A stretch of 57,392 nucleotides of DNA from a virus (lineage: Duplodnaviria; Caudoviricetes), in IMG/VR virus record IMGVR_UViG_3300048587_000172, positions 1 to 57,392 of that record, one strand, 5' to 3'. Positions within the stretch are counted from its first letter, which is position 1; the number at the start of each line of letters is the position of its first letter. This document shows, piece by piece, positions 3,487 to 57,392 of the stretch. The position numbers and the translations under genes were made by a program. The notes beneath the pieces were generated by a model. It was not told the DNA's origin, made no database searches, and was given only the letters and a program-made list of their open reading frames with translations.

Positions 3487-4413
3487 ATGTCAAACGGATA
3501 CACTTTCGAAAATTTCAACCATACAAATCTACTACGACCAAAAAATTATAATGGTCAAGATGTAGCTTACTATCAGGAAAAGAAAGATGGTATCAGAATC
3601 ACGATTTTTAAGTCTGACAGTGGTATTCGTGCTATTACCCGCAATGGTATTACCGACTACGCTAGTGAATTGTTGGCTATACCTAGACTCAAAAAAGAAA
3701 TCGAAAACTTACCTGATAAAACGATACTTGATTGCGAAGCGTATGTACCCGGTGTGCAAGCTGCTAATATTGTTACTCATTTATTGCAATCGTCGCGCGA
3801 CTTACGATTAGGTGTATTCGCGGCACCTTTTTATGATGGATTTTGCTATATAAATGCTGATATCAGAGATATGGATAATTTCTTCTCTGATACACTTTCT
3901 GAAAATCGAAGTAATAATTGTTTAGTTTCTCCCTTACATTGGGTAGAAGTTTATTCACTATCAGCGGAGTTTGCAGGCAACACTCCGCAAATCTGCGCAG
4001 AATTGTTACTTGAACGTGCGAAACGAAATAAAATTGAAGGTTATGTACTCAAAAATGGGCACTATCATCAATGGTATAAATTGAAACCCACAAAGACAGT
4101 TGATTGTTTTGTGGTTGGTTACAACAAATCAACCAGTGGGACGTTTCTAGGCGGGTTAAAGTCTCTGCAAGTGGCTGTACACGATGATGAGAATTATAAC
4201 GGTAGTCAAGATGGTATTTATTTTCGGAATATTGGATTAGTTCCAAGTGGGTTTGATGCCGACTATCGTATGGAAGTTGATTTAGATTCATTGATAGGTA
4301 AAGTTTGTGAAGTAGAGTTTGATTCGTGGACAGACTATAGAAAACTTAAATTCCCACGTTTCTTACGCTGGCGTGAAGATAAGACGCGCGAAGAATGTAC
4401 ACTTGTCGAATAG
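3487..4413 (+). CDS. lig: ATP-dependent DNA ligase
   Basis: Motif I QEKKDGIR, III LDCEAY, IV EGYVLK, V KLKP, VI KFPRFLRWREDK. Confidence 0.93.
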   Translation: MSNGYTFENFNHTNLLRPKNYNGQDVAYYQEKKDGIRITIFKSDSGIRAITRNGITDYASELLAIPRLKKEIENLPDKTILDCEAYVPGVQAANIVTHLLQSSRDLRLGVFAAPFYDGFCYINADIRDMDNFFSDTLSENRSNNCLVSPLHWVEVYSLSAEFAGNTPQICAELLLERAKRNKIEGYVLKNGHYHQWYKLKPTKTVDCFVVGYNKSTSGTFLGGLKSLQVAVHDDENYNGSQDGIYFRNIGLVPSGFDADYRMEVDLDSLIGKVCEVEFDSWTDYRKLKFPRFLRWREDKTREECTLVE

Positions 4414-4421
4414 GTGATACT

Positions 4422-4622
4422 ATGGCAAAACGGAAACAATCTATACCGTATTTAAAACCATGTTCAATACCGTCTAAATTAGTGGAAGAATCTCTTTTAA
4501 ATTAGTATCTCTGTGACCCGTGGTATAAATCAGATATGAAAACATTACAAACTGGTAGATTCGATCATAGAAAAGAGAATAGATCGAATACACCTAAACA
4601 TTTCGATCTACCAGAAGAATAA
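4422..4622 (+). pseudogene. small ORF with in-frame TAG (4503-4505)
   Basis: AGGTGA RBS, ATG 4422, 27 codons, TAG, then 38 further sense codons to TAA 4622, filling the intergenic gap. Confidence 0.35.
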
Positions 4623-4660
4623 AATGTAGCTGACTTGATTAACCTTAAGAAGGAATAATT

Positions 4661-4903
4661 ATGAAGTTTTTACCAGAAGTAACGTCATTTTTTGTGTTTG
4701 TAATTATGGTTCTAGCCTTTACCATATCTCTAGACAAGTATCTATCAGTAAATAGTGTAGAAGATATGAAAATTAATGCAATTTTCGGGGTGGTTATAGG
4801 TATAGGAATTTTAGTTGTTCGTGTAAAAGTAGATTTGCGTAATCTCCAAAAAGAAGTTAAAGACTTGAGAGATAATACTACTGAAAATAAGAAAGTGGAT
4901 TAA
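4661..4903 (+). CDS. small membrane protein (2 TM)
   Basis: Two hydrophobic segments and a charged tail; AAGGA RBS. Confidence 0.7.
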   Translation: MKFLPEVTSFFVFVIMVLAFTISLDKYLSVNSVEDMKINAIFGVVIGIGILVVRVKVDLRNLQKEVKDLRDNTTENKKVD

Positions 4904-4964
4904 TACAAATCTTATCATATGGTGCGCAAAGAGATTTTGCGACAGGCAAAGATAAGATTTTTAC

Positions 4965-5047
4965 CGGGATATGGCGGAATGGCAGACGCTACGGACTTAA
5001 AATCCGTTGTTAGAAATAACGTAAGGGTTCGAATCCCTTTATCCCGA
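4965..5047 (+). tRNA. trnL: tRNA-Leu(UAA), no encoded CCA
   Basis: Acceptor CGGGATA/TATCCCG, D-arm TGGCGGAATGGCAGACGC, anticodon stem ACGGA/TCCGT with loop CT-TAA-AA, long variable arm, T-loop TTCGAAT. Confidence 0.93.
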
Positions 5048-5156
5048 TTGTGCAAATGATAGTTTGAAGAGTCTCTATCAGGCGCACAATTAGTAACATC
5101 TACCACCGCAAATAGATGTTGCAACTTAGAGTGTTATTACCCTTAACACTCTTCAT

Positions 5157-5184
5157 AGCCAGTAGGTGAAGCTGGTTTATTTTT
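5157..5184 (+). terminator. intrinsic terminator candidate
   Basis: AGCCAGT/GCTGGTT stem followed by TATTTTT. Confidence 0.5.
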
Positions 5185-5213
5185 GATAACATTTTGATAG
5201 AAAGGATAAGATT

Positions 5214-5609
5214 ATGTCAAAGAAAGTTACTAAGGTTATTATTCGGGATAGTAACGGACAAGTTCAAACAACAAAATTTCATTCATATAAAAAACAGAAA
5301 CTAGCTAAGGAGTCTGCAAACAAAATCAAACTTCTTGAAAGACAGTTAGATAAAGAGAAAGATAATCTACGTAATCTGACAAAACCTAGACTAACACCTT
5401 TTCAGATTGGACGATTAGCAGCACATGTAGCTACTACTGTGGAACTTTACCCTGATGATACAACTGATAAGTGGGGACAGCATTTGAAAGATTTGATTAA
5501 TGAAGATAGAAATCTTCCAAATTATTTTCAAACTGAAATAGCCTCTAAATATAACGGGATTGTCGGACCAACAGATTTGATTCAAGAATTTTTCGAATAT
5601 TTCGGTTAA
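5214..5609 (+). CDS. hypothetical protein
   Basis: 131-aa ORF, GAAAGGA RBS. Confidence 0.75.
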   Translation: MSKKVTKVIIRDSNGQVQTTKFHSYKKQKLAKESANKIKLLERQLDKEKDNLRNLTKPRLTPFQIGRLAAHVATTVELYPDDTTDKWGQHLKDLINEDRNLPNYFQTEIASKYNGIVGPTDLIQEFFEYFG

Positions 5610-5665
5610 AGTTTCTTTTGGTACTGGCCGATATAAAGGGTAGGAACTTAACCGAAAGGAAACAA

Positions 5666-6010
5666 ATGTTGAAGTCTTTGCATGTGATTTACTGTGATAT
5701 GTGCCAGAATGAGATTATTCAAATTCTTGGCAATGAACCGCCATCGGTTGATGCAATTAAATTAACCGGTGTTGTAGTTGACGATAAAGGCGCACACTTC
5801 TGTAGGAAGTGTTACGGATACGAAAAAATTATCCGATTTGGTAAGACCTACGGAATGTCAGCTACAAATATTAAAGATAAACTGAATAAAATTGCTGTGG
5901 ATATCGACTATAGCAATATTGAAATGAGGGTGGCCGGTCATTTCATGGAAGAAAATGAAATAGAAGCAATCCGTAATCGTCAACGCGATAACAATTTCAA
6001 AATTAGGTAA
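5666..6010 (+). CDS. Zn-finger protein with family-A DNA polymerase motif B and motif A peptides
   Basis: CDMC...CRKC; KIIRFGKTYGMSA (motif B-like); DYSNIEMRVAGH (motif A-like); GAAAGGA RBS before ATG 5666. Confidence 0.7.
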   Translation: MLKSLHVIYCDMCQNEIIQILGNEPPSVDAIKLTGVVVDDKGAHFCRKCYGYEKIIRFGKTYGMSATNIKDKLNKIAVDIDYSNIEMRVAGHFMEENEIEAIRNRQRDNNFKIR

Positions 6011-6016
6011 TCTAAT

Positions 6017-6397
6017 ATGTCTCAATTACTTAACAACTTTGCAGCAGAAATTCATCGTCGTAACATCGAACAATTGCGCGGCATGGCAATTAACGATCAA
6101 CCTAAAACCGTTGCCTCTGAATTGATTGAAGGGTTAGAGGAATATAGAGATTCATTGAATGGTTTGACAGTTGAAGAAAAGAGAGTTTTAGATAAATTGA
6201 GACTCTATTACGGTGATACTACGGTTAATATCGGTAAAAAAATATGGCATTTTAGTCATAAATTAAACGAGTATGATAGTGAGTACAGAATTACTATATT
6301 TTCTAAGAAAGAAGAAAGTAAATGTGAATCTGTAATAATGAAAACATTAAATGAAGCTTTACGTTGTGTATTTGAAGTAATTCCAAAGGATTTTTAG
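6017..6397 (+). CDS. hypothetical protein
   Basis: 126-aa ORF in tightly packed operon. Confidence 0.7.
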   Translation: MSQLLNNFAAEIHRRNIEQLRGMAINDQPKTVASELIEGLEEYRDSLNGLTVEEKRVLDKLRLYYGDTTVNIGKKIWHFSHKLNEYDSEYRITIFSKKEESKCESVIMKTLNEALRCVFEVIPKDF

Positions 6398-6399
6398 AT

Positions 6400-6657
6400 A
6401 TGGTTAGTGAATACGATGATGGTACAATTCTAATATCTAATAACTATACACAAATTTATTTATTACCAATAAATATTGAAGTAGTTACAATGGAAATAAA
6501 TAGACTTATTACTTTTTATTGTAAAAGTGGAAGTCTTATTATACTAGATTACTATCAGCAATATAATAATACTTCAGAATTGTCATATCAAGATAAGATT
6601 GAAAGAGAAAAATCTTGTAAAAATGATTTTAAACTTTTAACAACAATCATCAAATGA
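6400..6657 (+). CDS. hypothetical protein
   Basis: 85-aa ORF, ATGA overlap with next gene. Confidence 0.65.
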   Translation: MVSEYDDGTILISNNYTQIYLLPINIEVVTMEINRLITFYCKSGSLIILDYYQQYNNTSELSYQDKIEREKSCKNDFKLLTTIIK

Positions 6658-6998
6658 TTACATCACTGAACGAATTTGATTTGCTGACTAAGTTAATGGT
6701 AATGCAGGATCGTCATTTAGCTATGATGATTTGGCAACATATTTTCTACGATTGTAATATTGCGCAACCAACAATATTAGCAAGGTATATAGAATTTATG
6801 TATAAATCTGATACAAAAGATGACGTATCTACTTTTGAAGAATTATCACGAATTTATTTGCAAGAGGAAGGTATTCAATTTTATATTAGTTTGTATGGAT
6901 ACCCTCAAAGAATGAATAATCAACCTAAATCGCCAGATTATAAATTGATAATGAAAGATGAATTAGTAACAGCAGAAGCGCAAGAACCTAAAATTTAA
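6654..6998 (+). CDS. hypothetical protein, intact paralog of 3116..3453
   Basis: 114-aa ORF with internal similarity to the broken gene. Confidence 0.75.
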   Translation: MITSLNEFDLLTKLMVMQDRHLAMMIWQHIFYDCNIAQPTILARYIEFMYKSDTKDDVSTFEELSRIYLQEEGIQFYISLYGYPQRMNNQPKSPDYKLIMKDELVTAEAQEPKI

Positions 6999-7114
6999 TC
7001 TTGACGAACGGACTAGTAGTCAAGTATGTGAAAGTATGTTAGGTGTGACCGCCGAGCCTAACAGAAAATATGCACATGCAAAATCGGCGGCCCCATTTTA
7101 AAAGGGAAGATAAT

Positions 7115-7783
7115 ATGAAACTAATAATTGGTATTACAGATACTATTGTTACACCATCAGAATCTATTGATTTTGACTATAACGATTATTTACATTATGG
7201 AAAGATAGATAACTACAAATATGAATTATCAGAATATGACATTGTATATACTGGATGGCCAATAGAGCAATTAGGGACGTATCAACTATCTCTATATCAG
7301 TTAATGAATCGTCGTCCAAGACAAGTCATTTTTAACCAAACTTATATAGATCAAGATAAGTTATCTGTAATGTTCTCAATTGACACTGCAAATCACTTTC
7401 TGAAAGAAATGAATATTGTACCGGGAAGGGTAGTTTTAGTTAATTCGCCTAAAATTGGTGAACGTACTAGAATGCCATGTATTTATAAACACTGTTCCCG
7501 GCCAGAATCGAATGTACGATTGTATTGGGATGTTAACAACGGATTGTTAGCTGGACATACCCTATCCTCACAACTTAGCCTATTAGACTCATTAAAATCA
7601 GTTCCAGAAGCTATACAGATTCATTCTATTAAAACTTTAGAAATGATAGAAGTAATTGAAATCTTAAGTTTTTGTAATATGTATGATGTACCAGTAATTA
7701 CTACTACTCAAAAAGACTACGACTTAATTACTCATAAGTTCAGATTCGAACCGATTAAACCTAAAAACAAAATTGGATTATGA
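7115..7783 (+). CDS. degenerate endonuclease IV / xylose-isomerase-like TIM-barrel protein
   Basis: VVLVNSPKIG, RLYWDVNNGLLAGHTL, AIQIHS, DVPVITTT follow the order of Nfo motifs ILLENTAGQG, VCLDTCHLFAAGYDL, HLND, IPLILET, but without the metal ligands. Confidence 0.5.
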   Translation: MKLIIGITDTIVTPSESIDFDYNDYLHYGKIDNYKYELSEYDIVYTGWPIEQLGTYQLSLYQLMNRRPRQVIFNQTYIDQDKLSVMFSIDTANHFLKEMNIVPGRVVLVNSPKIGERTRMPCIYKHCSRPESNVRLYWDVNNGLLAGHTLSSQLSLLDSLKSVPEAIQIHSIKTLEMIEVIEILSFCNMYDVPVITTTQKDYDLITHKFRFEPIKPKNKIGL

Positions 7784-8595
7784 AGTACAAACCAGAATAT
7801 AATCTTCACAAAAATAACGTTGCTTGCAAGTTGTTTGTAAGTGATGCAAACGAATTTCTAATTAATCTACGGGAACAGTATTTACATATTGCAATTGAAC
7901 GGCCTAAATTAATCTTTTTCGATCCACCGTTTAATATGAGTAGAAATTACGATAGCTGTTCTGACAATGTTTCACGTGTAGAATATCTATCATCATTAAA
8001 ATCATGGATTGAAAATTCTGCGCTATTATTATGTACTACTGGAAGTCTTTGGATTAACCTACCCGATCAATGGGCGGCGCATGCAGTAGTGTTTGCAGAA
8101 CAATTTGGGATGAAGTTAGAAAATTGGTGTATCTGGCATTATCGTTTTGGAGTTAATCAGCCAAAACGATTTATCAAATCAAAAAATCATGCCTTATGGT
8201 TTTCTTTTGGTAGTCCAGAAATTAATCCAGAAGCTGCAAAAGTTCCTTCCGATCGCGCGACGATTTATAACGATGGTAGAATTTTTGAATCTGAATCAGG
8301 CGGAATGCGCATGGATTTAGACGTTTGGGGATTCGACCAATATTGGGGAAGGGTGCAAGGTAATAATAAAGAACGTCGTCACTTACACGACAATCAGCTT
8401 CCTGAATTGTATTTAAAGCGTATTGTAGAGGTTTGTAGCAATCCCGGTGATTTAGTGGTCGATCCATTCTGTGGAAGCGGTACAACGGCTACAGTGGCCG
8501 TTGAATTGGGTAGGAACGTCTATACAAACGACATTTCATCGGCGTATATTGATTCGGCGTACAATCGTGTGATGAAGGGAATGGTTAGGAAATAA
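7780..8595 (+). CDS. N6-adenine/N4-cytosine DNA methyltransferase (beta class)
   Basis: DPPF catalytic motif before DPFCGSGTT SAM-binding motif; H.NQLPE. Confidence 0.92.
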   Translation: MKYKPEYNLHKNNVACKLFVSDANEFLINLREQYLHIAIERPKLIFFDPPFNMSRNYDSCSDNVSRVEYLSSLKSWIENSALLLCTTGSLWINLPDQWAAHAVVFAEQFGMKLENWCIWHYRFGVNQPKRFIKSKNHALWFSFGSPEINPEAAKVPSDRATIYNDGRIFESESGGMRMDLDVWGFDQYWGRVQGNNKERRHLHDNQLPELYLKRIVEVCSNPGDLVVDPFCGSGTTATVAVELGRNVYTNDISSAYIDSAYNRVMKGMVRK

Positions 8596-10076: not shown

Positions 10077-10427
10077 ATGGCACACGTAATGCCGAACAAT
10101 GAACATAAAGAACAGGTTAATCATCCAAGCCATTACGGCGGTGCTGATAACCCTTATGAAGTTATCAAAGTAATTGAGGCATGGGAAAAGTATTTTAAAC
10201 TTAGCTTCAACTTGTTGACTGCAATTAAGTATATCCCACGCGCGGGCCGTAAAGACCCTGCAAAACGGATAGAGGATTTGAAGAAAGCAATATGGTACAT
10301 CAATAGGGAAATCACTAATTTAAGCTGTTTAGAGTATGAACAGCTTAAATTAAATGAAAAGAAAGAAGTAAATAAACAATTTAAAGAATTTGTTGAAGAT
10401 AGAATATCGAAAAATTCAGAAGAATGA
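10077..10427 (+). CDS. DUF3310-like protein (T7 gp1.7/SaV-like, putative nucleotide kinase)
   Basis: VNHPSHY..YEVIKVIE..IKYI.RAG.K..EDLKKA.WY signature. Confidence 0.85.
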   Translation: MAHVMPNNEHKEQVNHPSHYGGADNPYEVIKVIEAWEKYFKLSFNLLTAIKYIPRAGRKDPAKRIEDLKKAIWYINREITNLSCLEYEQLKLNEKKEVNKQFKEFVEDRISKNSEE

Positions 10428-11353
10428 AACTTTTTATAATACAACTTATTCATCTATACTTAAAGAATCATGATATGAATCTCCCAATTAAGAAAATCTC
10501 TGCGCAAATCATTGCCGACAGTATCAATCCAGTAGGCAATCGTATTACATCGTTTATTCTTTGCTATCCTCGATTTATTCATAGCGAATTGATGACACAC
10601 CGCGCTTTTAGTCGCAATGCTGCATCGTCGCGTGCAATACCGATTAAAAAGATGGTCAAAGAAGTGTGGTCTAATCCTGCAATGCCGATTCGGTGGGGAA
10701 AGAATGGAAAAGGAATGCAGGATCATGGATTGTTAACCGGCATCCGATTATGGTTAATTAAACGTATATGGTTGCTTGCTAGTAAAGTAGCCTGCATCTT
10801 TGCTTTGTTGATGTATTGGATCGGTGTACACAAACAAATCGCAAATCGAGTTTTGGAGCCTTTCGCATGGATGGTTACATTAGTGACCGCAACTGAATAT
10901 AAAAATTTCTTTGCTTTACGTTGTCATATAAAAGCGCAGCCAGAATTTCAACACTTAGCCTATTTAATGTTGAAAGAATACTTAAGGGAAGAAAAACTAA
11001 AAGCAATAAATTGGAATGATTGGCATTTACCTTTTGCAGAATTTATGCCGATTGAATGTACGCTAGATCAAAAGCTGCAAATATCATCCGCTAGGTGTGC
11101 GCGGTTATCGTATATGTCGTTCGACGGTAAATTAGATATTGGTAAAGACTACGATATCTATAAAAAGCTAGTAGGTGAAGTGCCCGGCCACTGGTCGCCG
11201 ATTGAACATCCAGCGCAAGCAGTTGACGCGAATTTTGGACCATATAAAGGATGGATAAGTTTTCGTGCAATGCAAGCGAATGAGAATATCACTAATATAA
11301 ATCTGTTTGAACTTGTTACCGAATATGAAAAGACTACAGGAATAGTGAAATGA
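10424..11353 (+). CDS. thyX: FAD-dependent thymidylate synthase
   Basis: HSELMTHRAFSRNAASSRAIP, HKQIANRVLEPF, LR...AQPE, SARCARLSY, HWSPIEH. Confidence 0.92.
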   Translation: MKLFIIQLIHLYLKNHDMNLPIKKISAQIIADSINPVGNRITSFILCYPRFIHSELMTHRAFSRNAASSRAIPIKKMVKEVWSNPAMPIRWGKNGKGMQDHGLLTGIRLWLIKRIWLLASKVACIFALLMYWIGVHKQIANRVLEPFAWMVTLVTATEYKNFFALRCHIKAQPEFQHLAYLMLKEYLREEKLKAINWNDWHLPFAEFMPIECTLDQKLQISSARCARLSYMSFDGKLDIGKDYDIYKKLVGEVPGHWSPIEHPAQAVDANFGPYKGWISFRAMQANENITNINLFELVTEYEKTTGIVK

Positions 11354-13027: not shown

Positions 13028-13381
13028 ATGGATGAAGAATTTCCTACAATTACTAGTAGTAATTTTCGTAAATATATTATTGCTAGTGATTTTATTGAAA
13101 CGTTGGAAAGTCAGGAAGGGTGGATAGCTCTAGATAATGGGGAATGGATTTATCTAGTTTATGTTTGGAGCGATTCTCACAATAGAATTGAGGATATACT
13201 AGATGATAAAAAAGGCGGGATACACTATAATTGGCGCGGTACGTTACGTAATCTAAGACGGATGATAAACGGTAAGTTCGATCCTGATAAGTGTGATTGT
13301 AAAATAGAACCGAAAAATCAAGGGTATAAACAATTGGTCGGTTTGTATAGAGAACTTTTACTTTGGAGTAGAAACAAATGA
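13028..13381 (+). CDS. hypothetical protein
   Basis: 117-aa ORF, AAAGG RBS, ATGA overlap with RNR. Confidence 0.7.
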   Translation: MDEEFPTITSSNFRKYIIASDFIETLESQEGWIALDNGEWIYLVYVWSDSHNRIEDILDDKKGGIHYNWRGTLRNLRRMINGKFDPDKCDCKIEPKNQGYKQLVGLYRELLLWSRNK

Positions 13382-16128
13382 GTGGAATTGTAGTAATCAA
13401 GCGTGATGGATCAATTCAGGATTTTAATAAGAAGAAGATTGCCGATGCAATTCAGAAAGCATTTGAAGCTGTCGGGCAAAAAATTGAGTATGCTCAATTG
13501 GATGTGTTTGCAATTACTGTAGGCGCATCACTTGAACAATCTTATGAGGATAAAGTCAATCCTGAAAACACTACGCAAATTCCTATTGAAGCAATTCAGG
13601 ATGAAGTTGAACAAGTATTAATGGAATCAGAATTTCCGGATGTAGCAAAAGCATATATTTTGTATCGGAATGAACGTCATAAGGAACGTAGTAAAGAATC
13701 TTTACGTCCTGATTCAAGTATGATTAGCGAATATATTCACTTGGCGAAGTACGCGCGGTGGATACCAGAAGAGAATCGTCGTGAAACTTTCGAGGAATCG
13801 GTAGACCGAACTATCAATATGTTTTCGGAGAAACTTACCGAACGTATTACCGATCCATTTACGTTAGAGAAAAACTTAAATATCTTGAAAGAAGCAAAAC
13901 AATTCATCCTGCAAAAGAGAATCCTTCCTTCGATGCGGTGTTTACAGTTTGCAGGTAATCGTATCAAACAACACAATGCAGCTTTGTACAATTGCAGCTT
14001 CTCACTTGCAGACCGTCCGCGTTTTTTTGCAGAAGCTTTATACCTTTTGCTTTGTGGTTGCGGTGTAGGATATTCGGTGCAATCACACCATATCGAAAAG
14101 CTACCGGTTATTAAAGGGTTTGATACGACGCGCGTAACACACCATATCATCGAAGATACTATCATTGGCTGGGCGAATGCTGTCGATAGATTAATTGATG
14201 CCGCTATCAACGGATATTATCCGGAGTTTTCGTTTCATATGTTGCGTCCGGAAGGAAGTTGGTTGCATGTAAGCGGTGGAAAGTCTCCCGGACATTTACC
14301 ATTGAAACGTTTATTGCAAAAATTAGAAACGATACTAAATCATGCAACTGGTCGGCAGTTAAAATCTATTGAAGTGCATGATATGACTTGCCACATTGCA
14401 GAAGCAGTTTTAGCTGGTGGTATTCGTCGTAGCAGTTTGATTGCGCTGTTCTCAATCGACGATGACGATATGACGAATTGCAAAATACCTGAAAACTTCC
14501 GTTATGCTTTCGGTAATGATCCGGGATTGAATCCACAACGTGCGATGGCGAATAACAGCGGAGTCTTGCAACGTAGTAAATGCAGTAAAAATGATTTCGT
14601 TAAGTTGTTTGAATCTGCGCGTCATTATGGCGATCCGGGATTCATCTTTTCAAATGGTGAAGATTACGGATGCAATCCATGTGGTGAAATTGGATTGAAT
14701 CCTAAGATACATCGTTTTGAAAACGAAGATGAGACAATGTACTACGGCGCGTTAGATACAGAGTTTATTACTAGGAATGGATGGAAGCGGGTTAAAGACT
14801 GGTCTAATCATATTACGGAAATGACTGGCTGGTCATTCTGTAATTTATGCGAAGTGAATATTGCGAAGTGCGACGATATCACTAAATTCTTTCGTGCTTG
14901 TGAACTTGCAAGTTTTATCGGCACAATTCAGGCAAGTTTTACCAGCTTTGAATATTTAGGTGAAGTAACGGAAGCTATTTGCAAACGTGAAGCGCTTATT
15001 GGTGTTGGATTAACCGGTATTATGGATAATCCAGAAATTGGAATGAATGCGCAGAACTTAGAAATTGGCGCTCGTTTCGTTGTGGAGTTTAATAAAGCAA
15101 CAGCGAAAGATTTAGGAATCAATCCTGCAGCGCGTTGTACGACGGTAAAACCTTCCGGAACAGCTTCATTATTATTAGGGTGTGTTGGTAGTGGTCGGCA
15201 TCGACACCATGCGCGTAGATATATTCGACGTATTACTGCTAACAAACTTGAAGCAATCGCGCAAGAATTTCGTCGTGTGAATCCGCATATGGTGCAAGAA
15301 AAACCAAATGGCGATTTATCGTTGATGTTCCCGGTATTAGCGCCAATGGGTGCATACGTTGAAAAAGAAGCTACAGCCTTGCAGTCGTTAAATGAAACAA
15401 TCTTTTTATACGAGAATTGGATTCTTCCCGGAACTGCTATCCCTGAATCGTCGCCGGGATTAACTCATAATGTTTCATCTACTGTGAGTGTAAGCGAAAA
15501 TGAATGGGATGGTTTGATTAGCGCGATTTGGGATTCAAAAAATAATCTTGCGTCTTTATCTGTTATGCCGAGAATGGGCGACAAAGGAATCCCATTCATC
15601 CCACGCGAAGAAATTATTGATGGCGATCCTGTTGATGAAGCTATTTGGGAGAAGTTAATTACAAACTACAAACCAGTAGATTATAAACGTGTAAAAGAGT
15701 TTGAAGATTTAACAAATCGAAAAGGCGAAGTTGCTTGTTCTGGTGGAGTTTGTGAAATTGTTGATGCAAATAAAATTAACACTGCTGATGGCACGATTCT
15801 AATTTTTGATGGTGCGGAAGATGGAATCGGTCGCGGTGTGAAATTCCCGTATGACCGTTTCAAAACATTGGAACTTCATAACCGATTTATTTATTATCAT
15901 GGCCAGACAATGCAGGTTTTAAGTGCGGACAGTAATCTACGTTGTATGGTTGTAAAACCGTTACGTGGTAGCAAAAAATCTGACGCGCAACAAAATTTTC
16001 GGTCAATATATTCGATATTAAATAATATTTCCGATCTTTTTGATGATTTGACGGAAAAGAATGTTGATGTACCAATTCGTGAACCATACCCAATTGATTC
16101 AAACCCTAAACTGGACCGATTGACGTAA
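13378..16128 (+). CDS. nrdJ: class II (B12-dependent) ribonucleotide reductase with N-terminal ATP cone
   Basis: VIKRDG ATP cone; LPSMR, YNCSF, GCGVG, GGIRRS, NPCGEI, FCNL.E, TTVKPSGT, ACSGGVCE; no small-subunit gene in window. Confidence 0.9.
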   Translation: MSGIVVIKRDGSIQDFNKKKIADAIQKAFEAVGQKIEYAQLDVFAITVGASLEQSYEDKVNPENTTQIPIEAIQDEVEQVLMESEFPDVAKAYILYRNERHKERSKESLRPDSSMISEYIHLAKYARWIPEENRRETFEESVDRTINMFSEKLTERITDPFTLEKNLNILKEAKQFILQKRILPSMRCLQFAGNRIKQHNAALYNCSFSLADRPRFFAEALYLLLCGCGVGYSVQSHHIEKLPVIKGFDTTRVTHHIIEDTIIGWANAVDRLIDAAINGYYPEFSFHMLRPEGSWLHVSGGKSPGHLPLKRLLQKLETILNHATGRQLKSIEVHDMTCHIAEAVLAGGIRRSSLIALFSIDDDDMTNCKIPENFRYAFGNDPGLNPQRAMANNSGVLQRSKCSKNDFVKLFESARHYGDPGFIFSNGEDYGCNPCGEIGLNPKIHRFENEDETMYYGALDTEFITRNGWKRVKDWSNHITEMTGWSFCNLCEVNIAKCDDITKFFRACELASFIGTIQASFTSFEYLGEVTEAICKREALIGVGLTGIMDNPEIGMNAQNLEIGARFVVEFNKATAKDLGINPAARCTTVKPSGTASLLLGCVGSGRHRHHARRYIRRITANKLEAIAQEFRRVNPHMVQEKPNGDLSLMFPVLAPMGAYVEKEATALQSLNETIFLYENWILPGTAIPESSPGLTHNVSSTVSVSENEWDGLISAIWDSKNNLASLSVMPRMGDKGIPFIPREEIIDGDPVDEAIWEKLITNYKPVDYKRVKEFEDLTNRKGEVACSGGVCEIVDANKINTADGTILIFDGAEDGIGRGVKFPYDRFKTLELHNRFIYYHGQTMQVLSADSNLRCMVVKPLRGSKKSDAQQNFRSIYSILNNISDLFDDLTEKNVDVPIREPYPIDSNPKLDRLT

Positions 16129-31496: not shown

Positions 31497-32614
31497 TGGC
31501 AGAAGAATTTATTGATAATCAAAAAGAAGAAAAAAATTCTACTACCTTATTTGCATGGTTAGCAATAAGGTATATGATTCTATTGGAATTATATAAAAAT
31601 AAATTAGTTCAAGAATCAGTAAAGAATTTTAATGTTCTGGTGTTAAATTCCTATGTTAAAAAATGGGAAGAAATATTACAAAAAATTGAACGAAGTGGAA
31701 GTAAAACACGTCTTGAGGCTAACAAAAGTATTTCAGGTTCAATATCTGAAACGAAGAAAACACTTAAAAATGGTATTAAAAAAGTTTCGAAAAAAATCAC
31801 AAAAGAATTAGAAGATTTAATTAATATAGAAACCGATTGGCAGGTATCTACACTTAGTAGAATTATTCCTATTGAAATTGGAAAAGGTATTGCACCTTCA
31901 CCACAATTTCTCAATACGATAATAACTTCAAAACCTATGCAAGGTAAGTTATTATCAAAATGGTTTAGTGGTTTAACTGCTGAAATTCAATCGAAAGTTC
32001 AAGCTACTTTAAATATTGGTTTAGCAAAAGGGGAGACGATTCCTGAATTAACACGTAGGTTAATAGGAACACGAAAAAATCAGTATAAGGATAGCGTATT
32101 AAATATTCCTAGACGAAATGTTGAAGCTATTGTAAGAACTGCTGCATCACATGTAACAAATCAAGCTAGAGTAGAAACTTATAAAGCTAACAAAGAATTG
32201 TTCAAAGGTTGGCAATTCGTCGCTACTTTAGACGATAGAACAACATTGATTTGTATTTCGGAAGATGGTAATGTATATAATATCGGTGAAGGTCCGATAC
32301 CACCACTGCATTGGAATTGCCGATCAACTACCATTCCTGTTATGAAATCTCTACAGGAAATGGGATTTACTAAAGATGAAGATTATAAACTTCCGGTAGG
32401 TACTCGTGCTTCCTTTAATGGTCAAGTAGCTGCAAATATCAAATATAAAGATTGGTTAAAATCGCAATCGAATCAATTTCAAGATAGAGTATTAGGAAAA
32501 GAAAGAGCAGAGTTATTCCGATCAGGAAAAATAGCTGCTGATAAATTTGTAAATGATAAGGGAAAAACGTTGACCCTTTCACAATTACGTGTCTTATTGA
32601 GAAAGCAGGATTAG
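31496..32614 (+). CDS. minor head morphogenesis protein (SPP1 gp7 / Mu F-like)
   Basis: IVRTA, ATLDDRTT.IC...DG, PPLHWNCRS. Confidence 0.92.
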   Translation: MAEEFIDNQKEEKNSTTLFAWLAIRYMILLELYKNKLVQESVKNFNVLVLNSYVKKWEEILQKIERSGSKTRLEANKSISGSISETKKTLKNGIKKVSKKITKELEDLINIETDWQVSTLSRIIPIEIGKGIAPSPQFLNTIITSKPMQGKLLSKWFSGLTAEIQSKVQATLNIGLAKGETIPELTRRLIGTRKNQYKDSVLNIPRRNVEAIVRTAASHVTNQARVETYKANKELFKGWQFVATLDDRTTLICISEDGNVYNIGEGPIPPLHWNCRSTTIPVMKSLQEMGFTKDEDYKLPVGTRASFNGQVAANIKYKDWLKSQSNQFQDRVLGKERAELFRSGKIAADKFVNDKGKTLTLSQLRVLLRKQD

Positions 32615-32618
32615 GTTT

Positions 32619-33395
32619 ATGTCGTTACCAGCAATTGTAGATAGTTTGGATGGATTGTCCGAAGATATTGCAAAAGAATATAAGGATAACGGTAAGGGTA
32701 AATTTATCCTTGACGTTACTCCTGTCGGTACTGTCGCATTAGAAGATGTTGGCGGATTGAAATCTTCTTTGATGAAAGAACGTAAAGAAAGAGAAATCGC
32801 TGTTAACGCACTTAAAAAGTTTGAAGGTATTGAAGACCCCGAAGCAGCTAAAGAAGCTTTAACAAAATTAGATGAGGTTAAAAACTGGAAGCCAGACGAA
32901 AAAGTCGAACAAATGATGAAGGCTAGAACTGCTGATTTAGTAACCAAACATAAAAAAGAATTAGATGCAAAAGATACCGAATTTAATTCGGTAGAAAAGC
33001 AATTGCAGAAGCATTTAATTGATGATGCAATCACTAAAGCTGTTATTGCTGAAAAAGGTAAAGTAAATATTCTTAGTCCGCATCTTCGCGCACATGTTAA
33101 GATGAAAAACGTAAATGGTATACGTGTACCATCCGTGGTGGATGAAGCTGGAAATGAACGAGTAAATAATTCCGGTAATTTAATGACTATTCAGGAATTA
33201 GTTTCTGAATATAAAGCAAATGAAGAATTTGCAGTTGCTTTCGAAGCAACAGGGACTACTGGCTCTGGCGGTGGTGGTCCAAATCAAAGAAAAACCACTG
33301 CTACTAATTCTACGTCGAAAGTATCTAAGGATGATGCAAACGCTATTGAAAATAATCTAGAGGGGATTGCATCAGGTAAAGTAAACGTAGTCTAA
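32619..33395 (+). CDS. head scaffolding protein
   Basis: Between minor head and capsid; coiled coil; GSG motif near C-terminus. Confidence 0.8.
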   Translation: MSLPAIVDSLDGLSEDIAKEYKDNGKGKFILDVTPVGTVALEDVGGLKSSLMKERKEREIAVNALKKFEGIEDPEAAKEALTKLDEVKNWKPDEKVEQMMKARTADLVTKHKKELDAKDTEFNSVEKQLQKHLIDDAITKAVIAEKGKVNILSPHLRAHVKMKNVNGIRVPSVVDEAGNERVNNSGNLMTIQELVSEYKANEEFAVAFEATGTTGSGGGGPNQRKTTATNSTSKVSKDDANAIENNLEGIASGKVNVV

Positions 33396-33404
33396 TTAAA
33401 ACTC

Positions 33405-33446
33405 AACATACCTGCAATTGACTTTGCAGGTATGTTTTCATATAGT
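33405..33446 (+). promoter_or_regulatory. capsid-gene promoter whose -35 is the spacer of a 13-bp inverted repeat
   Basis: AACATACCTGCAA-TTGACT-TTGCAGGTATGTT; TTGACT-N17-TATAGT. Confidence 0.65.
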
Positions 33447-33546
33447 TCAGTCTTACAACATATCTTTTCGGTGGGATACCGGACGCGCTGGGATGGCGTG
33501 GGAATATGTGGAAATTCCTAACACTTTTCTCATTGGAGCAGCGCAA

Positions 33547-34797
33547 ATGGCAAATGACTTATCCGCAATCATGCCGAAGATTATCGCACGTGGCTTAATG
33601 CTTCTTCGCCCTAAGTTTGTTGTACCACGTACAATCAATTCGGATTACAGCAAAGAAGCTACGAAAAAAGGTACAGTAATTAATATCCCTATTGCGGCTA
33701 ATGTTGGTGTGCGGGATGTTACTCCCGGCCCTGTAAAGCCGAATAACGTAGATTTAACTTTATCACAAGCTGAAATTCGTTTGGATCAGTGGAAACAGAA
33801 TGATCCAATTCACTTGACTGATAAAGAACTCGCCGAAATTGATAGCAAAGAACATTTCTTGCCGATGCAAATGCAGTCGGCATTAAATGGATTAGCTGCT
33901 GCTGTTAATACTCAAATCGTGAGTAATTATAAAGGTCCAACAAACGGTATCTTTAATGTGTGGGGTACTCCGGGTACTACACCATTTGCTGATACTAATA
34001 CTTCTAATCCTAATTACGGTGTGAAACCTGCTACGAATGCAATGCGCATTCTTAACAGTGAAAATTCGCCTGATGAAAACCGTAGCGCAATTCTTAATTA
34101 TACAGCGGAAGCCGCTGCAATGGAATTGGCAACTTTCCATGAAGCTGATAAAACTGGTACACGTGAAAATCGTTTGCAAGGTGATATCGGTCGTGTTATG
34201 GGAATTGATTGGTATGGTACTGCTGGTGTATTAACCCATACCGCTGGTACTGTAATTAATAACTCCAGTGCACGCGAATTAGCAGTTAATAACAGCGGTG
34301 GTTATGCTGCTGGTACTTCTGCTTTAAACGTAGATAAGGGTGCTGCATCTACTGCTACTGGCACTCTTGTTTTAGGTGATATCATTAAGTTTGCAGGTCA
34401 TTCGCAAACTTATACTGTTATCGCAAATCCAGCAAGCGGTAATTATTCCAACGGTGCATATACGCTTGGATCAAATGCTGTTTCAGGTTTGATGATTTAT
34501 CCACCGCTTCGCGCGCCAGTAATTGATGATGAAGTCATTACAATCATGGCTTCACACGTGGTTAATATGGCGTATCATCGTGATGCGTTTGGTTTTGCAA
34601 TGCGTTCGTTGCAAAGCGAAAATGCGTTACTGAATAGTATCGGTGGTTCTATTATTCAATCCTATCAAGACCCTATGACGGGTATTGTACTGCGCTTGGA
34701 AGTTTCAAGGCAGCACAAACAAGTTACGTGGGAATTTGATATTTTATGGGGAAGTTCATTAGTTCGGCCAGAATTGGCTGTTCGATTAATTGGCTAA
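33547..34797 (+). CDS. major capsid protein (P22 coat-like)
   Basis: GGAG RBS before ATG 33547; DYS.E..KKG.VINIP, N.AYHRDAF..A.R.L, FDILWG...VRPE. Confidence 0.9.
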   Translation: MANDLSAIMPKIIARGLMLLRPKFVVPRTINSDYSKEATKKGTVINIPIAANVGVRDVTPGPVKPNNVDLTLSQAEIRLDQWKQNDPIHLTDKELAEIDSKEHFLPMQMQSALNGLAAAVNTQIVSNYKGPTNGIFNVWGTPGTTPFADTNTSNPNYGVKPATNAMRILNSENSPDENRSAILNYTAEAAAMELATFHEADKTGTRENRLQGDIGRVMGIDWYGTAGVLTHTAGTVINNSSARELAVNNSGGYAAGTSALNVDKGAASTATGTLVLGDIIKFAGHSQTYTVIANPASGNYSNGAYTLGSNAVSGLMIYPPLRAPVIDDEVITIMASHVVNMAYHRDAFGFAMRSLQSENALLNSIGGSIIQSYQDPMTGIVLRLEVSRQHKQVTWEFDILWGSSLVRPELAVRLIG

Positions 34798-48437: not shown

Positions 48438-48487
48438 GAACTATTCAATGATAGTTGTGATACAGTCAAATTTTGATAGGTAATTTT

Positions 48488-50677
48488 ATGTCGATTTCAA
48501 TCACTGAATTAATAAAAGATTCAACACACACAAATCATATGGTTTTAGAACCATTATGCACCGCAACAAAAACACTTTTTGAATTTCCAGAATTAGCAGA
48601 TAACATTGTCTGTAATATTGAACTGGATGAATCAGGTGAAGATTTTATAGTCGAACCTTTTGAATTATTTGCAGTTGATGAAAATGATGATGGCAAATTA
48701 TGCCGTTGCGGATATCCAAAAGATACGTGGATGCACAATCCATTAAGCGCAAACAATCATTCATTTTACGAAGCGCACAAAATTCAACTTGGCGATAAGT
48801 GGTATTATCCTAAGAATAATTTATTACCTTATAACGCGAAGAATTGGGTAAGAAAAGTACCCGAAAGAGAAGTTTTAAAAAACAATAATAATGGCTGGAA
48901 ATTAGCAGGTACAGATTTTTCGGCATTAATTATTCAACACGCTTGGAAACCGTTTCAACTTCATTTCAGTGACGACGCAAAATTATTGTACGATTTTCTT
49001 TTGTTACGGTTATACAAACAAACCAAATTTGCAGCGAACGTAGCGCGATTTAAGGTTGAAGGTGTATTACCTTCACTTCCTGATGAATTTATAGACCATC
49101 CAGAATTACCATTAGCGCCGTATCAAAAAGCAGCAGTTGGATTGTTATTAAAAGTTGATGGTTCTGGTTTGTGGATGGAACCGGGAACAGGTAAGACTGC
49201 AACATCAATTGCGCGGATGATGACAGAAGCGCGAATGAAACAAAAAGGATTATTAGGTAATTCTAAAGTAATGTATCGCGCATTAATCGTCTGTCCAAAT
49301 CAGGTTCGATATAACTGGCAATCTGAATTTAATCGTTTTGCGACACTACCCGGTAAATGTGCAGTTGTCCGCGGAGATTCATTACGTCGTCAAAAAACAA
49401 TCTACGACTCAATTCGGCAAGAAACAGATTGTAGTTGGAGCGCTACAATCATTGGAATGGATACACTAGGTAGAGAAGAAGTTTTGCAGTCTATTCCGTG
49501 GGATATTGTAGTTGTAGATGAAGCGCATAATTTTAAGCAACCGTCTACAAAACGTTGGAAAGCGCTTAGGGAGTATGTGGAACTACCGAATGTTAAATCA
49601 CGTATTGAATTAACTGGTACACCAATTCCAAATAGTTTACTTGATTTGTGGACGCAACTTGAATTTATGGGGAAAGGGTTATCTGGATTTAAAAAATACG
49701 ATAATTTTCGAAACTTCTATGGGGTATTTGAAGAATCTTATGATACTGCCGGTCGGGAACATCTAGTTTCATATCAAAATGTTCCTTTACTGCAAGAGAG
49801 ATTAACCCGGCTTTGTTACATGGTAACAAAGCAAGAGGCTAATCTACAATTGCCTGATAAATTAGAAGATGTTATTGAAATTGAAATGTCGTCAAAACAG
49901 TCGAAAGCATATCAAACTTTGTTAAAGACTGTTATGTTAGAGATTGAACAAGATTTATCTTTGATTCAATCTGGTAAAAAAACAATGACCGCTGAACATG
50001 TATTAACTAAGTTAATGCGGTTGGCGCAGATAACCAGCGGATTTTATACTCTTGATCCTATTTACAATCAAGATACTATGGATTTGATTTCTGCTAAAGA
50101 AGTAATTCAAATAGATGAAGTTAATCCAAAGGTGAAAGTGATAATTGATAGTATCAAAGAAGATTTGTATAATGATAAACTAGGTAAAAAAGTTATATGG
50201 GCATGTTTTGTTGAAGATATACGAATACTTAGCCAAGAGTTGAAAAAAGCAGGAATTAATCATGTAGGCTATCATCGTATGTGTGATATTGATTTTAGAG
50301 TACCTACAGCAAGGGATGCAGAACAAAAATTAAATTGTGATGAAAATTGTGATGTATTTATCGGTAATGCGCAAAGTAGTGGTGAAGGAGTTAATTTTCT
50401 AGGTTATGATAGAGAAAACCCTGATTCACATAATCGTTATGTAGATCATATGTTTTTTATGTCGTCCAATTGGCGAGCGGTTTTACGGCAACAAGCAAAA
50501 GATCGCGCGCATAGACGAGGTTCTCGTTGCCCGTCATTGCGAATTACAGATATTATCGTACCCGGTACAGTTGATGAAGAAATTCGTAACAAGCTGCTTA
50601 AAAAGCAAGCGGATGCAGCTACTATTCAAGATGTAAGACAGATTTTAAATGCGTTAGTAGGATTTCAAAATGGATAA
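48488..50677 (+). CDS. SNF2-family helicase
   Basis: MEPGTGKT, VVDEAH, LTGTP, GEGVN, QAKDRAHR.G. Confidence 0.92.
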   Translation: MSISITELIKDSTHTNHMVLEPLCTATKTLFEFPELADNIVCNIELDESGEDFIVEPFELFAVDENDDGKLCRCGYPKDTWMHNPLSANNHSFYEAHKIQLGDKWYYPKNNLLPYNAKNWVRKVPEREVLKNNNNGWKLAGTDFSALIIQHAWKPFQLHFSDDAKLLYDFLLLRLYKQTKFAANVARFKVEGVLPSLPDEFIDHPELPLAPYQKAAVGLLLKVDGSGLWMEPGTGKTATSIARMMTEARMKQKGLLGNSKVMYRALIVCPNQVRYNWQSEFNRFATLPGKCAVVRGDSLRRQKTIYDSIRQETDCSWSATIIGMDTLGREEVLQSIPWDIVVVDEAHNFKQPSTKRWKALREYVELPNVKSRIELTGTPIPNSLLDLWTQLEFMGKGLSGFKKYDNFRNFYGVFEESYDTAGREHLVSYQNVPLLQERLTRLCYMVTKQEANLQLPDKLEDVIEIEMSSKQSKAYQTLLKTVMLEIEQDLSLIQSGKKTMTAEHVLTKLMRLAQITSGFYTLDPIYNQDTMDLISAKEVIQIDEVNPKVKVIIDSIKEDLYNDKLGKKVIWACFVEDIRILSQELKKAGINHVGYHRMCDIDFRVPTARDAEQKLNCDENCDVFIGNAQSSGEGVNFLGYDRENPDSHNRYVDHMFFMSSNWRAVLRQQAKDRAHRRGSRCPSLRITDIIVPGTVDEEIRNKLLKKQADAATIQDVRQILNALVGFQNG

Positions 50678-56123: not shown

Positions 56124-56128
56124 CTGTT

Positions 56129-56974: not shown

Positions 56975-56975
56975 T

Positions 56976-57392
56976 ATGTATACATACAATGATGTTCATA
57001 GTCTATTTCAAAAATTGTTATTAAATATTGAAAATACTGAAAAGCTTACAGAATCTAATTTAAAAGGTACTAGTGCAATATGTAAACGTCGTGTGACTAT
57101 ATCAAGTTACATTGATCCTATTTGGGTTGATAACTATTTTAAAAACAAAAAGAAATCAATTGATTTATCAAAGAGATTATTTTTTAATGGTCCTAATATA
57201 GGTCATACATGTACAAACGAACCGGGTAAGTGTGGTTGCGCTCATTCAGAACCTAGATTAATTCAACATCTTTATAAGCAAAGATTACCATTACCAAAAA
57301 ATCTTATTCTCATTTCCACTTATGGATCATGTCCAAATTGCGCAAACATTCTTGCAGATTCGGAATTGTTCTGTGGAGCGGTATATAAAACA
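56976..57392 (+). CDS. dCMP deaminase-like Zn deaminase, 3'-truncated (not in ORF track)
   Basis: Translated by hand from ATG 56976: CKRRV, NGP, CGCAHSE, SCPNC; runs off the window. Confidence 0.85.
   Translation, partial: MYTYNDVHSLFQKLLLNIENTEKLTESNLKGTSAICKRRVTISSYIDPIWVDNYFKNKKKSIDLSKRLFFNGPNIGHTCTNEPGKCGCAHSEPRLIQHLYKQRLPLPKNLILISTYGSCPNCANILADSELFCGAVYKT

What the first reader, a model, noticed from the sequence alone, without database searches (positions are those of the whole stretch)
5666..6010. Mini-protein: Zn finger plus DNA Pol I motif B then motif A, in reversed order
In 114 aa: CxxC...CxxC, then KIIRFGKTYGMSA (E. coli Pol I motif B reads KAINFGLIYGMSA), then DYSNIEMRVAGH (motif A reads DYSQIELRIMAH), then a weaker B-like RNRQRDNNF. 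In family-A polymerases A precedes B and motif C is required, so this cannot be a polymerase or a simple truncation. It has a strong RBS, and no full polymerase is in the window. Inference: a polymerase mimic/decoy (for example against defences that sense phage polymerases), a dNTP-binding regulator, or a Pol I inhibitor.
Basis: partly seen in the sequence, partly recalled or inferred. Interest (0 to 1): 0.78.

Follow-up and report, generated by a model that had tools for sequence, protein, structure and literature searches.

The report
Tiny phage gene with scrambled polymerase scraps
A 114-residue phage gene joins a likely zinc-binding head to two short pieces of a family-A DNA polymerase in swapped order; it has no relatives anywhere searched and is most likely a recombination scar, not a polymerase mimic.

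Summary
ORF 5666-6010 (+) has an AAAGGAAA ribosome-binding site and encodes 114 aa. Its only four Cys form C10xxC13 and C46xxC49.

Residues 54-74 align to E. coli Pol I 758-778 (O-helix, motif B). Residues 76-93 align to Pol I 700-717 (motif A). The order is reversed, with one residue between the pieces.

- **Piece A is strongly non-random:** Pfam E 1.8e-4, hhalign P 7.9e-7, and 0 of 20,000 shuffles reach its score.
- **Piece B is only moderately supported:** hhalign P 3.8e-4, and 32-46 of 20,000 shuffles reach its score.
It is the collinear continuation of piece A.

- **The missing polymerase is probably a truncation effect.** The record is a linear fragment, 86% complete, that stops inside the replication module. 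In 17 of 19 relatives' loci a full PolA lies 2.4-8.6 kb past the primase-helicase, beyond this record's end.
- **The protein is a singleton.** It has no homologue among 1.84 billion representatives, 5.8 billion clusters, IMG/VR or GenBank phages, and is absent from 5 near-complete relatives.
- **The fold is not predictable** (pLDDT 41).

Best reading: a chimeric orphan gene carrying a permuted PolA-derived scrap. A mimic, decoy or dNTP-binding role is untested and unlikely.

The parts
5655..5662 (+). Shine-Dalgarno-like AAAGGAAA, 3 nt upstream of the ATG at 5666 (its AGGA core, 5657-5660, 5 nt upstream)
   Evidence: Read directly. Neighbouring genes at 5214 and 6400 carry similar AAAGGA sites. 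The database gene call starts instead at M12 (5699), has no such site, and would lose the first Cys.
5666..6010 (+). ORF of 114 aa (P0001), stop codon TAA at 6008-6010
   Evidence: The annotated frame has the best codon-usage score, 0.157 bits per codon against -0.16 to -1.39 for the other five frames. Neighbouring small genes score 0.15-0.26.
5666..5824 (+). N-terminal half, residues 1-53. Putative zinc ribbon with C10xxC13 (5693-5704) and C46xxC49 (5801-5812).
   Evidence: The protein's only four Cys form two CxxC pairs, P = 9e-4 by chance. No Pfam family matches at E below 0.02. AF2 places short strands around both knuckles but at pLDDT below 50. Zinc binding is inferred, not shown.
5825..5887 (+). 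Piece B, residues 54-74 (KIIRFGKTYGMSATNIKDKLN). It resembles the PolA O-helix (motif B), E. coli Pol I 758-778.
   Evidence: BLASTP gives 11 of 21 identical, pairwise E 0.001. hhalign alternative alignment P 3.8e-4. 32-46 of 20,000 shuffles reach its score. Alone it gets no Pfam hit. K54, F58 and Y62 are read off the alignment; Y50 sits where the R four residues before the K would be, which the alignment does not reach (motif-residue roles recalled).
5891..5998 (+). Piece A, residues 76-111 (IAVDIDYSNIEMRVAGHFMEENEIEAIRNRQRDNNF). It resembles PolA motif A and the following helix, E. coli Pol I from about 700.
   Evidence: Pfam PF00476 E 1.8e-4. hhalign P 7.9e-7. 0 of 20,000 shuffles reach its score. 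BLASTP to Pol I 700-717. A 36-aa collinear match to the PolA of relative L052/G048.
56976..57392 (+). Context: dCMP-deaminase-like ORF cut off by the end of the record. The phage's own PolA is expected just beyond it.
   Evidence: In G047 the homologue at 31713-31940 is followed by PolA at 32002-34059.

Best explanation
This is a lineage-specific chimeric orphan gene in the early region of a siphovirus-like phage. A likely zinc-ribbon N-terminus (residues 1-53) is fused in frame to a scrap of about 55 residues derived from a family-A DNA polymerase gene. The scrap is the O-helix segment (PolA about 758-778) joined directly to the motif-A strand and helix (PolA about 700-735).

The reversed order needs only one novel junction, PolA 778 joined to 700. 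A tandem duplication or a circular permutation of the 240-nt motif A-to-B segment would create exactly that junction. Loss of the rest, and fusion to another ORF, would then follow. This origin is inferred.

The protein cannot polymerise: it lacks motif C, the thumb and most of the palm and fingers. It is probably translated as a small early protein, but the PolA-like residues are most likely inherited passengers, not a working active-site mimic.

The phage's real PolA most likely lies in the roughly 14% of the genome missing just past the record's 3' end.
For: **Shown**
- Two PolA-like pieces in reversed order, one residue apart. Piece A is highly significant and piece B moderately so.
- PolA-like sequence is confined to this ORF. 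It is the only one of 60 ORF pieces in 4400-7800 with an hhalign hit (P 5e-6; next best 0.011). It is also the only PF00476 place in the six-frame record.
- It is a singleton. The only hit is itself among 1.84 billion representatives and among proteins of 62-200 aa. There is nothing among longer proteins: 62 candidates, none at E <= 10. There is nothing in IMG/VR or GenBank phages.
- It is absent from 5 relatives at 93-100% completeness. The sole hit there is G048's own PolA.
- Codon usage and ribosome-binding site look like those of neighbouring genes.
- Piece A's best match among the 57 PolAs in hand is the PolA of a relative of this phage (L052, score 66 against 57 or less). This hints at origin within the lineage.
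- The missing PolA is explained by synteny.

**Context from papers**
- Polymerase genes are often swapped in Caudoviricetes (PMC11348598: abstract and passages read).
Against: - No donor sequence was found. The phage's own PolA is not in the record.
- No IMG/VR contig carries the B variant: 0 matches.
- The exact DYSNIEMRV 9-mer occurs in jumbo-phage PolAs that show no match to this phage's primase-helicase or terminase (5 of the 10 records tested, all 15-35% complete).
- The key active-site residues are all retained (K54, F58, Y62, D81, E86 equivalents). This fits a recent copy but equally fits selection on them.
- The ORF has phage-like codon usage in both halves, so it is not obviously a fresh scar.
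- The only independent contig, from run X1, starts exactly at 5885, which is the B|A junction. It therefore does not bridge that junction.
Confidence: 0.6

Rival explanations
1. Only piece A is polymerase-derived. The B-like stretch would then be a chance resemblance sitting on the last strand of the zinc ribbon, so there is no real 'reversed order', only a zinc-ribbon protein with a 36-aa motif-A scrap as its tail.
For: - Piece B alone gets no PF00476 hit.
- It scores only 3.7-4.1 bits in my HMMs. 32-46 of 20,000 shuffles reach it, and 1 of 451 window ORFs reaches it in one version.
- With the jumbo-phage HMM, 277 of 20,000 shuffles reach it.
- hhalign probability is 36.
- The conserved R four residues before the motif-B Lys is missing.
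- AF2, at low confidence, draws residues 56-61 as a strand rather than a helix.
Against: - A P of about 0.002 for a second piece of the same family, one residue from a strongly supported first piece, is hard to put down to chance.
- The match to E. coli Pol I runs 21 residues, 11 identical, past the core motif to ...LN.
- K, F, Y and G of the O-helix are all in register.
Confidence: 0.2
2. One reading: a functional mini-protein that presents the PolA active-site elements. It might bind dNTP-Mg, inhibit or regulate a polymerase, or act as a decoy for defences triggered by phage polymerases.
For: - The residues that contact dNTP and metal in PolA are all kept: K54, F58, Y62, D81, E86 (their roles recalled from the PolA literature).
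- The ORF looks expressed: good ribosome-binding site, native codon usage, tight packing among early genes.
- Mutations in phage polymerase genes let phages escape the Borvo, AbiQ and DarTG defence systems (PMC11348598, discussion passages read).
Against: - No homologue exists anywhere, so there is no sign of selection.
- No confident fold.
- Motifs A and B are buried active-site elements that need the palm and fingers scaffold and motif C to bind dNTP-Mg (established knowledge, recalled).
- A decoy for an abortive-infection sensor would be expected to trigger it, not block it (inference).
- No match in PADLOC or PHROGs.
Confidence: 0.1
3. Chance ORF or chance resemblance: the frame is not a gene and the motifs are coincidence.
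For: - It is a singleton with no predicted fold.
- The Pfam score is below the gathering threshold.
Against: - Piece A: 0 of 20,000 shuffles reach it, hhalign P 7.9e-7, Pfam E 1.8e-4.
- The codon-usage frame signal and the ribosome-binding site.
- The paired CxxC motifs, P 9e-4.
Confidence: 0.05
4. Assembly chimera: the B|A junction was made by the assembler.
For: The one independent contig, in run X1, begins exactly at 5885, which is the junction. Nothing from that run covers 5432-5884.
Against: - The pieces are about 63 and 108 nt, shorter than reads.
- The reading frame and codon usage run straight across the junction.
- X1 has contigs on both sides at similar depth (3-4.7) and similar likeness.
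Confidence: 0.03

Closest known systems
Family A DNA polymerases (Pfam PF00476; E. coli Pol I, Taq, Bst)
   Same: Residues 76-111 match motif A and the helix after it. Residues 54-74 match the O-helix (motif B). The equivalents of K758, F762, Y766, D705 and E710 are present.
   Different: Only about 55 of some 400 domain residues are present. The order is B then A. There is no motif C, no thumb and no exonuclease domain. The score is below the Pfam and NCBIfam cut-offs. It is not a member.
Split or truncated PolAs: the exo/pol split in S-SBP1-like T7-like phages and the truncated CCPols of staphylococcal mobile elements (PMC10201439, passages read)
   Same: Both are family-A polymerase genes broken into non-canonical ORFs in phages or mobile elements.
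   Different: Those keep whole domains in normal order and stay catalytic. In my term search that paper has 0 occurrences of 'permut' and of 'zinc'. Here there is a permuted scrap of two motifs.
Small zinc-ribbon proteins of phage early regions
   Same: Size, CxxC...CxxC spacing, and position among small early ORFs.
   Different: No sequence family matches. The zinc-ribbon ORF beside the ligase gene of relative MW202621 (P0005) has a different Cys spacing and no obvious likeness by eye; it was not aligned. A polymerase-derived tail on such a protein turned up in none.
Permuted palm motifs (C-A-B) in RNA-dependent RNA polymerases of birnaviruses and permutotetraviruses (recalled, not read here)
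   Same: Conserved polymerase motifs occur in a non-canonical order.
   Different: Those are complete, active enzymes with all motifs, and the family is unrelated. This is a fragment.

Membership tests
Family A DNA polymerase (PF00476) | Profile score above the curated cut-off | tested here: not met
   Pfam 21 bits against 34.3. TIGR00593 14 bits against 600 and NF004397 12.7 bits against 720.
Family A DNA polymerase (PF00476) | Motif A (DYSQIELR-type, with the catalytic Asp) | tested here: met
   D81YSNIEMR88 aligns to Pol I 705-712. hhalign P 7.9e-7.
Family A DNA polymerase (PF00476) | Motif B (RxxxKxxxFxxxYG O-helix) | tested here: inconclusive
   K54, F58, Y62 and G63 are in register, but the R four residues before the K is Y50. 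hhalign P 3.8e-4 and 32-46 of 20,000 shuffles. The motif formula is recalled.
Family A DNA polymerase (PF00476) | Motif C (HDE, the second catalytic Asp) | tested here: not met
   The protein contains no 'HD'. His occurs only at positions 6, 44 and 92.
Family A DNA polymerase (PF00476) | Collinear order A, B, C within a palm-fingers-thumb domain of about 400 aa | tested here: not met
   The order is B (54-74) then A (76-111), and the whole protein is 114 aa.
Zinc ribbon | Two CxxC knuckles on beta-hairpins that bind one zinc ion | tested here: inconclusive
   C10xxC13 and C46xxC49 are the only Cys, P 9e-4. The AF2 model puts strands there but pLDDT is below 50. No family hit. Metal binding cannot be tested with these tools.
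Anti-defence or defence-associated protein | Match to a known family, or conserved linkage to one | tested here: not met
   PADLOC: no families. PHROGs: no families. No homologues whose context could be compared.

The most novel reading that the evidence does not exclude
A phage has reused two active-site elements of its own family-A polymerase, the O-helix and the motif-A strand, on a zinc-ribbon scaffold. The result would be a miniature nucleotide- or metal-binding module, or a polymerase-pattern decoy, that acts early in infection, for example against defences that respond to phage polymerases.
Probability: 0.08. Interest if true: 0.8.

Novelty: new variant of a known kind. Interest (0 to 1): 0.3.

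Why it matters
If it is only a scar, it is a neat small example of how phage orphan genes arise. An essential replication gene leaves a permuted 55-residue scrap that gets fused to another ORF and keeps being read.

It is also a caution for motif-based annotation. Near-perfect catalytic motifs do not imply function.

If the minority reading were true, it would be the first polymerase active-site mimic, and it would bear on how defences sense phage replication. With one sequence, no relatives and no fold, that cannot be argued from the data.

Tried and rejected
- **Homologue searches, all empty apart from the protein itself:**
  - The search for homologous proteins, near and longer lengths;
  - phmmer over 1.84 billion representatives;
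  - IMG/VR peptide patterns: 11 stretches matched, none confirmed;
  - tblastn against GenBank phages: 6 records, all at E >= 2, none a polymerase.
- **Neighbouring ORFs** 5214-5609 and 6017-6397 have no relatives in IMG/VR. A single-sequence search with the primase-helicase also found none. The search with a two-sequence alignment worked.
- **Solved structures by sequence:** 15 sequences at E <= 10, best E 0.61 (an unrelated antibody chain), best Pol I E 1.3.
- **Structure:** AF2 on the single sequence gave pLDDT 41. I therefore ran no fold search, because matches would be meaningless.
- **ESM Atlas:**
  - By features, the three hits shown (best of 30) are short clusters that carry PF00476 in 10%, 70% and 68% of members, scoring 0.90-0.92. 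The tool says shuffled proteins reach that level 4-10 times in 100. I treat this as weak.
  - By structure, all rows had TM below 0.5.
- **Donor search:**
  - The DYSNIEMRV pattern found 10 IMG/VR contigs, all jumbo-phage PolAs.
  - 5 of those 10 records were tested; none has this phage's primase-helicase or terminase, but all are only 15-35% complete.
  - The one bacterial hit sits in a 13-aa open frame.
  - The two B-variant patterns found nothing.
- **Extending the record:** two 30-mers from its ends found nothing in metagenome contigs.
- **In-situ decay of a whole polA gene:** rejected, because there is no other PolA-like scrap in 4400-7800.
- **A collinear reading of residues 54-108 as PolA motif B plus what follows it** (31% over 55 aa): rejected, given the statistics for piece A.
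- **Sequencing runs:**
  - No RNA holder is listed.
  - In run X1 nothing covers 5432-5884.
  - Runs X2 and X3 hold only tRNA-like matches at 4972-5032.
- **Other scans:** Rfam found only the tRNA. Repeats and promoter/terminator scans showed nothing that bears on the ORF.
- **Literature:** three searches turned up no description of a B-then-A PolA mini-protein. Supplements were not seen.

Full report
**What is there.** The window is a whole IMG/VR virus record: 57,392 bases, linear, CheckV completeness 86%. ORF 5666-6010 on the + strand encodes 114 aa (P0001).
- AAAGGAAA lies at 5655-5662, 3 nt before the ATG; its AGGA core is 5 nt before it.
- The ORF is packed among small same-strand early ORFs: 5214-5609, 6017-6397, 6400-6657 and 6654-6998.
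- Its frame has the best codon-usage score of the six, 0.157 bits per codon against -0.16 to -1.39. That is within the range of its small neighbours (0.15-0.26), and it holds for both halves.
- The database gene call starts at M12 (103 aa, P0002). That start has no ribosome-binding site and would remove the first Cys.

**The motifs.** The protein has four Cys only, arranged as C10xxC13 and C46xxC49. By chance that arrangement has P = 9e-4.

I fetched E. coli polA and compared it with the protein.
- Mini 54-74 aligns to Pol I 758-778, 11 of 21 identical, pairwise E 0.001.
- Mini 76-93 aligns to Pol I 700-717, 8 of 18 identical, pairwise E 0.003.
- The order is therefore reversed and a single residue (K75) lies between the pieces.
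- phmmer against solved structures shows the same two pieces against Bst and Taq Pol I, but nothing there is significant (best Pol I E 1.3).

**How far beyond chance.** I built segment HMMs from 28 PolAs: 26 bacterial ones of one phylum, plus the PolAs of two related phages. None was chosen for likeness to the query.

| Test | Piece A | Piece B |
|---|---|---|
| Pfam PF00476 | E 1.8e-4, 21 bits, cut-off 34.3; residues 76-104 on profile 153-182 of 381. Alone: E 0.003 | no hit alone |
| NCBIfam Pol I models | E 0.012 and 0.032 | none |
| Segment HMM score | 12.9 bits | 3.7 bits |
| Shuffles reaching that score | 0 of 20,000 | 46 of 20,000 |
| Window six-frame ORFs reaching it | 0 of 451 | 1 of 451 |
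| hhalign | P 7.9e-7, probability 91.7, mini 78-108 | P 3.8e-4, probability 36 |

Two further HMMs were tried for piece B.
- With all 35 PolAs it scores 4.1 bits; 32 of 20,000 shuffles and 0 of 451 ORFs reach that.
- With only 7 jumbo-phage PolAs it scores 1.0 bit; 277 of 20,000 shuffles and 8 of 451 ORFs reach that.

Piece A is solid. Piece B is probable but not proven.

It continues piece A collinearly to the Asp and Phe that follow motif A in PolAs.

**Not a polymerase, and nothing else polymerase-like nearby.**
- There is no motif C: the protein contains no 'HD'.
- Only about 55 residues resemble PolA.
- The six-frame PF00476 search of the record finds only this spot.
- Of 60 ORF pieces on both strands of 4400-7800, only this one has an hhalign hit to a full PolA alignment (P 5e-6; next best 0.011). 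It is therefore not the last visible part of a whole polA gene decaying in place.

**It stands alone.**
- The only hit is itself among 1.84 billion representatives and among 62-200-aa proteins of the 5.8-billion-cluster set.
- None of 62 longer candidates reaches E <= 10.
- There is nothing in IMG/VR or GenBank phages.
- There are no PHROG or PADLOC families.
- Five relatives' records at 93-100% completeness have no such ORF. The one hit there is G048's own PolA, matching mini 76-111 at E 0.0038.
- AF2 on the single sequence gives pLDDT 41, and the Atlas model 0.47.
- Conservation, dN/dS and fold therefore cannot be assessed.

**The 'missing polymerase'.** The end of the window is a replication module:
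- SNF2 helicase, 48473-50677;
- three ORFs;
- primase-helicase, 52749-55616;
- MazG-like, 55626-56123;
- a 281-aa protein, 56129-56974;
- a dCMP-deaminase-like ORF cut by the record's end, 56976-57392.

The same order occurs in relatives.
- GenBank phage MW202657 has it, with primase-helicase 44% identical over 98% of its length. A 639-aa PolA follows about 2 kb after the deaminase.
- In the closest complete relative, G047 (56,775 b, terminal repeats, primase-helicase 46% identical), the deaminase homologue at 31713-31940 is followed at once by PolA at 32002-34059.
- Of 38 loci with a full-length primase-helicase match, 19 have a full 10-kb downstream flank. 17 of those 19 carry a PolA on the same strand, 2.4-8.6 kb downstream. 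The 2 misses are L069 and L080.
- None of the 19 loci with shorter flanks shows a PolA.
- The window has only 1,776 bases after its primase-helicase.

The phage almost certainly has an ordinary PolA in the missing 14%. Attempts to extend the record failed.

**Where the scrap came from.**
- The exact DYSNIEMRV occurs in 10 IMG/VR contigs, all PolAs of large phages (open frames of 568-1,412 aa).
- 5 of those 10 records were tested, and none has this phage's primase-helicase or terminase. They are only 15-35% complete.
- The mini's B variant occurs nowhere else in IMG/VR.
- Among the 57 PolAs in hand, piece A's best local alignment is to the PolA of a relative: L052, score 66 over 36 aa, against 57 or less for all others.
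- Piece B is closest to jumbo-phage and E. coli-type O-helices: 53 and 51, against 40 for the best relative.
- There is no clear donor. The phage's own PolA is the obvious missing comparison.

**Independent sequence.** One wastewater run (X1; one study) holds short low-depth contigs of a related strain.
- A 528-nt contig covers 5885-6412 with 16 differences, so piece A and the next gene exist in a second sample.
- That contig begins exactly at the B|A junction, and nothing from the run covers 5432-5884.
- The junction itself is therefore not independently confirmed.

**Reading.** The simplest account is a chimeric orphan gene: a zinc-ribbon head fused to a permuted PolA scrap.
- The reversed order needs one novel junction, PolA 778 joined to 700. 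A tandem duplication or a circular permutation of the motif A-to-B segment would create it. This is inferred.
- Polymerase genes are frequently exchanged in tailed phages (PMC11348598: abstract and passages).
- The 2023 survey of PolA diversity reports split and truncated forms. In my term search it has no occurrence of 'permut' or 'zinc' (PMC10201439, passages).
- The mimic, decoy or regulator idea is not excluded, but nothing supports it. The retained residues are what a copy of a polymerase would carry anyway.
- Motifs A and B work only within the full palm and fingers together with motif C (recalled knowledge).

Noticed in passing
window 55626-57392 with 10424-11353 and 13378-16128: A nucleotide-metabolism set: MazG-like pyrophosphohydrolase, a 281-aa protein whose homologues in relatives are annotated 'pyrimidine hmase' (29-32% identity), a dCMP-deaminase-like ORF, a ThyX-like protein, and an ATP-cone ribonucleotide reductase. 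Together they suggest this phage group may make a modified pyrimidine in its DNA.
   Followed up: partly
window 4965-5047 (+): A tRNA-Leu (anticodon UAA) between the ligase gene and the small early ORFs, followed by a terminator-like hairpin at 5157-5177. Many unrelated contigs of runs X1-X3 match only this tRNA core (4972-5032).
   Followed up: partly
window 4404-4881: The related strain in run X1 differs here by two joints: one skips 135 bases, and one skips 279 bases and has 29 other letters in their place. It also has a 21-base insertion behind 4946. This is a variable spot between the ligase and the tRNA.
   Followed up: no
window 5885: The only independent contig over the ORF starts at exactly the codon where the motif-B-like piece ends and the motif-A-like piece begins. 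This may be coincidence at depth 3.4, or a graph branch point in that strain.
   Followed up: no
L004-L013 (IMG/VR): A group of long family-A polymerases (open frames up to 1,412 aa) on contigs of large phages shares the unusual motif A DYSNIEMRVAAN and motif B AKI[IL]NFALLYGGT.
   Followed up: partly
window 7780-8595 (+): An N6/N4 DNA methyltransferase (PF01555, E 3.4e-40) overlaps the end of an unknown 237-aa ORF (7070-7783) by 4 bases. In MW202657 the methyltransferases sit directly after PolA.
   Followed up: no
window 1-57392: Every ORF of 250 aa or more lies on the + strand. The record starts and ends inside the early/replication region, so the break falls within about 400 bases of where relatives place the PolA gene.
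   Followed up: partly
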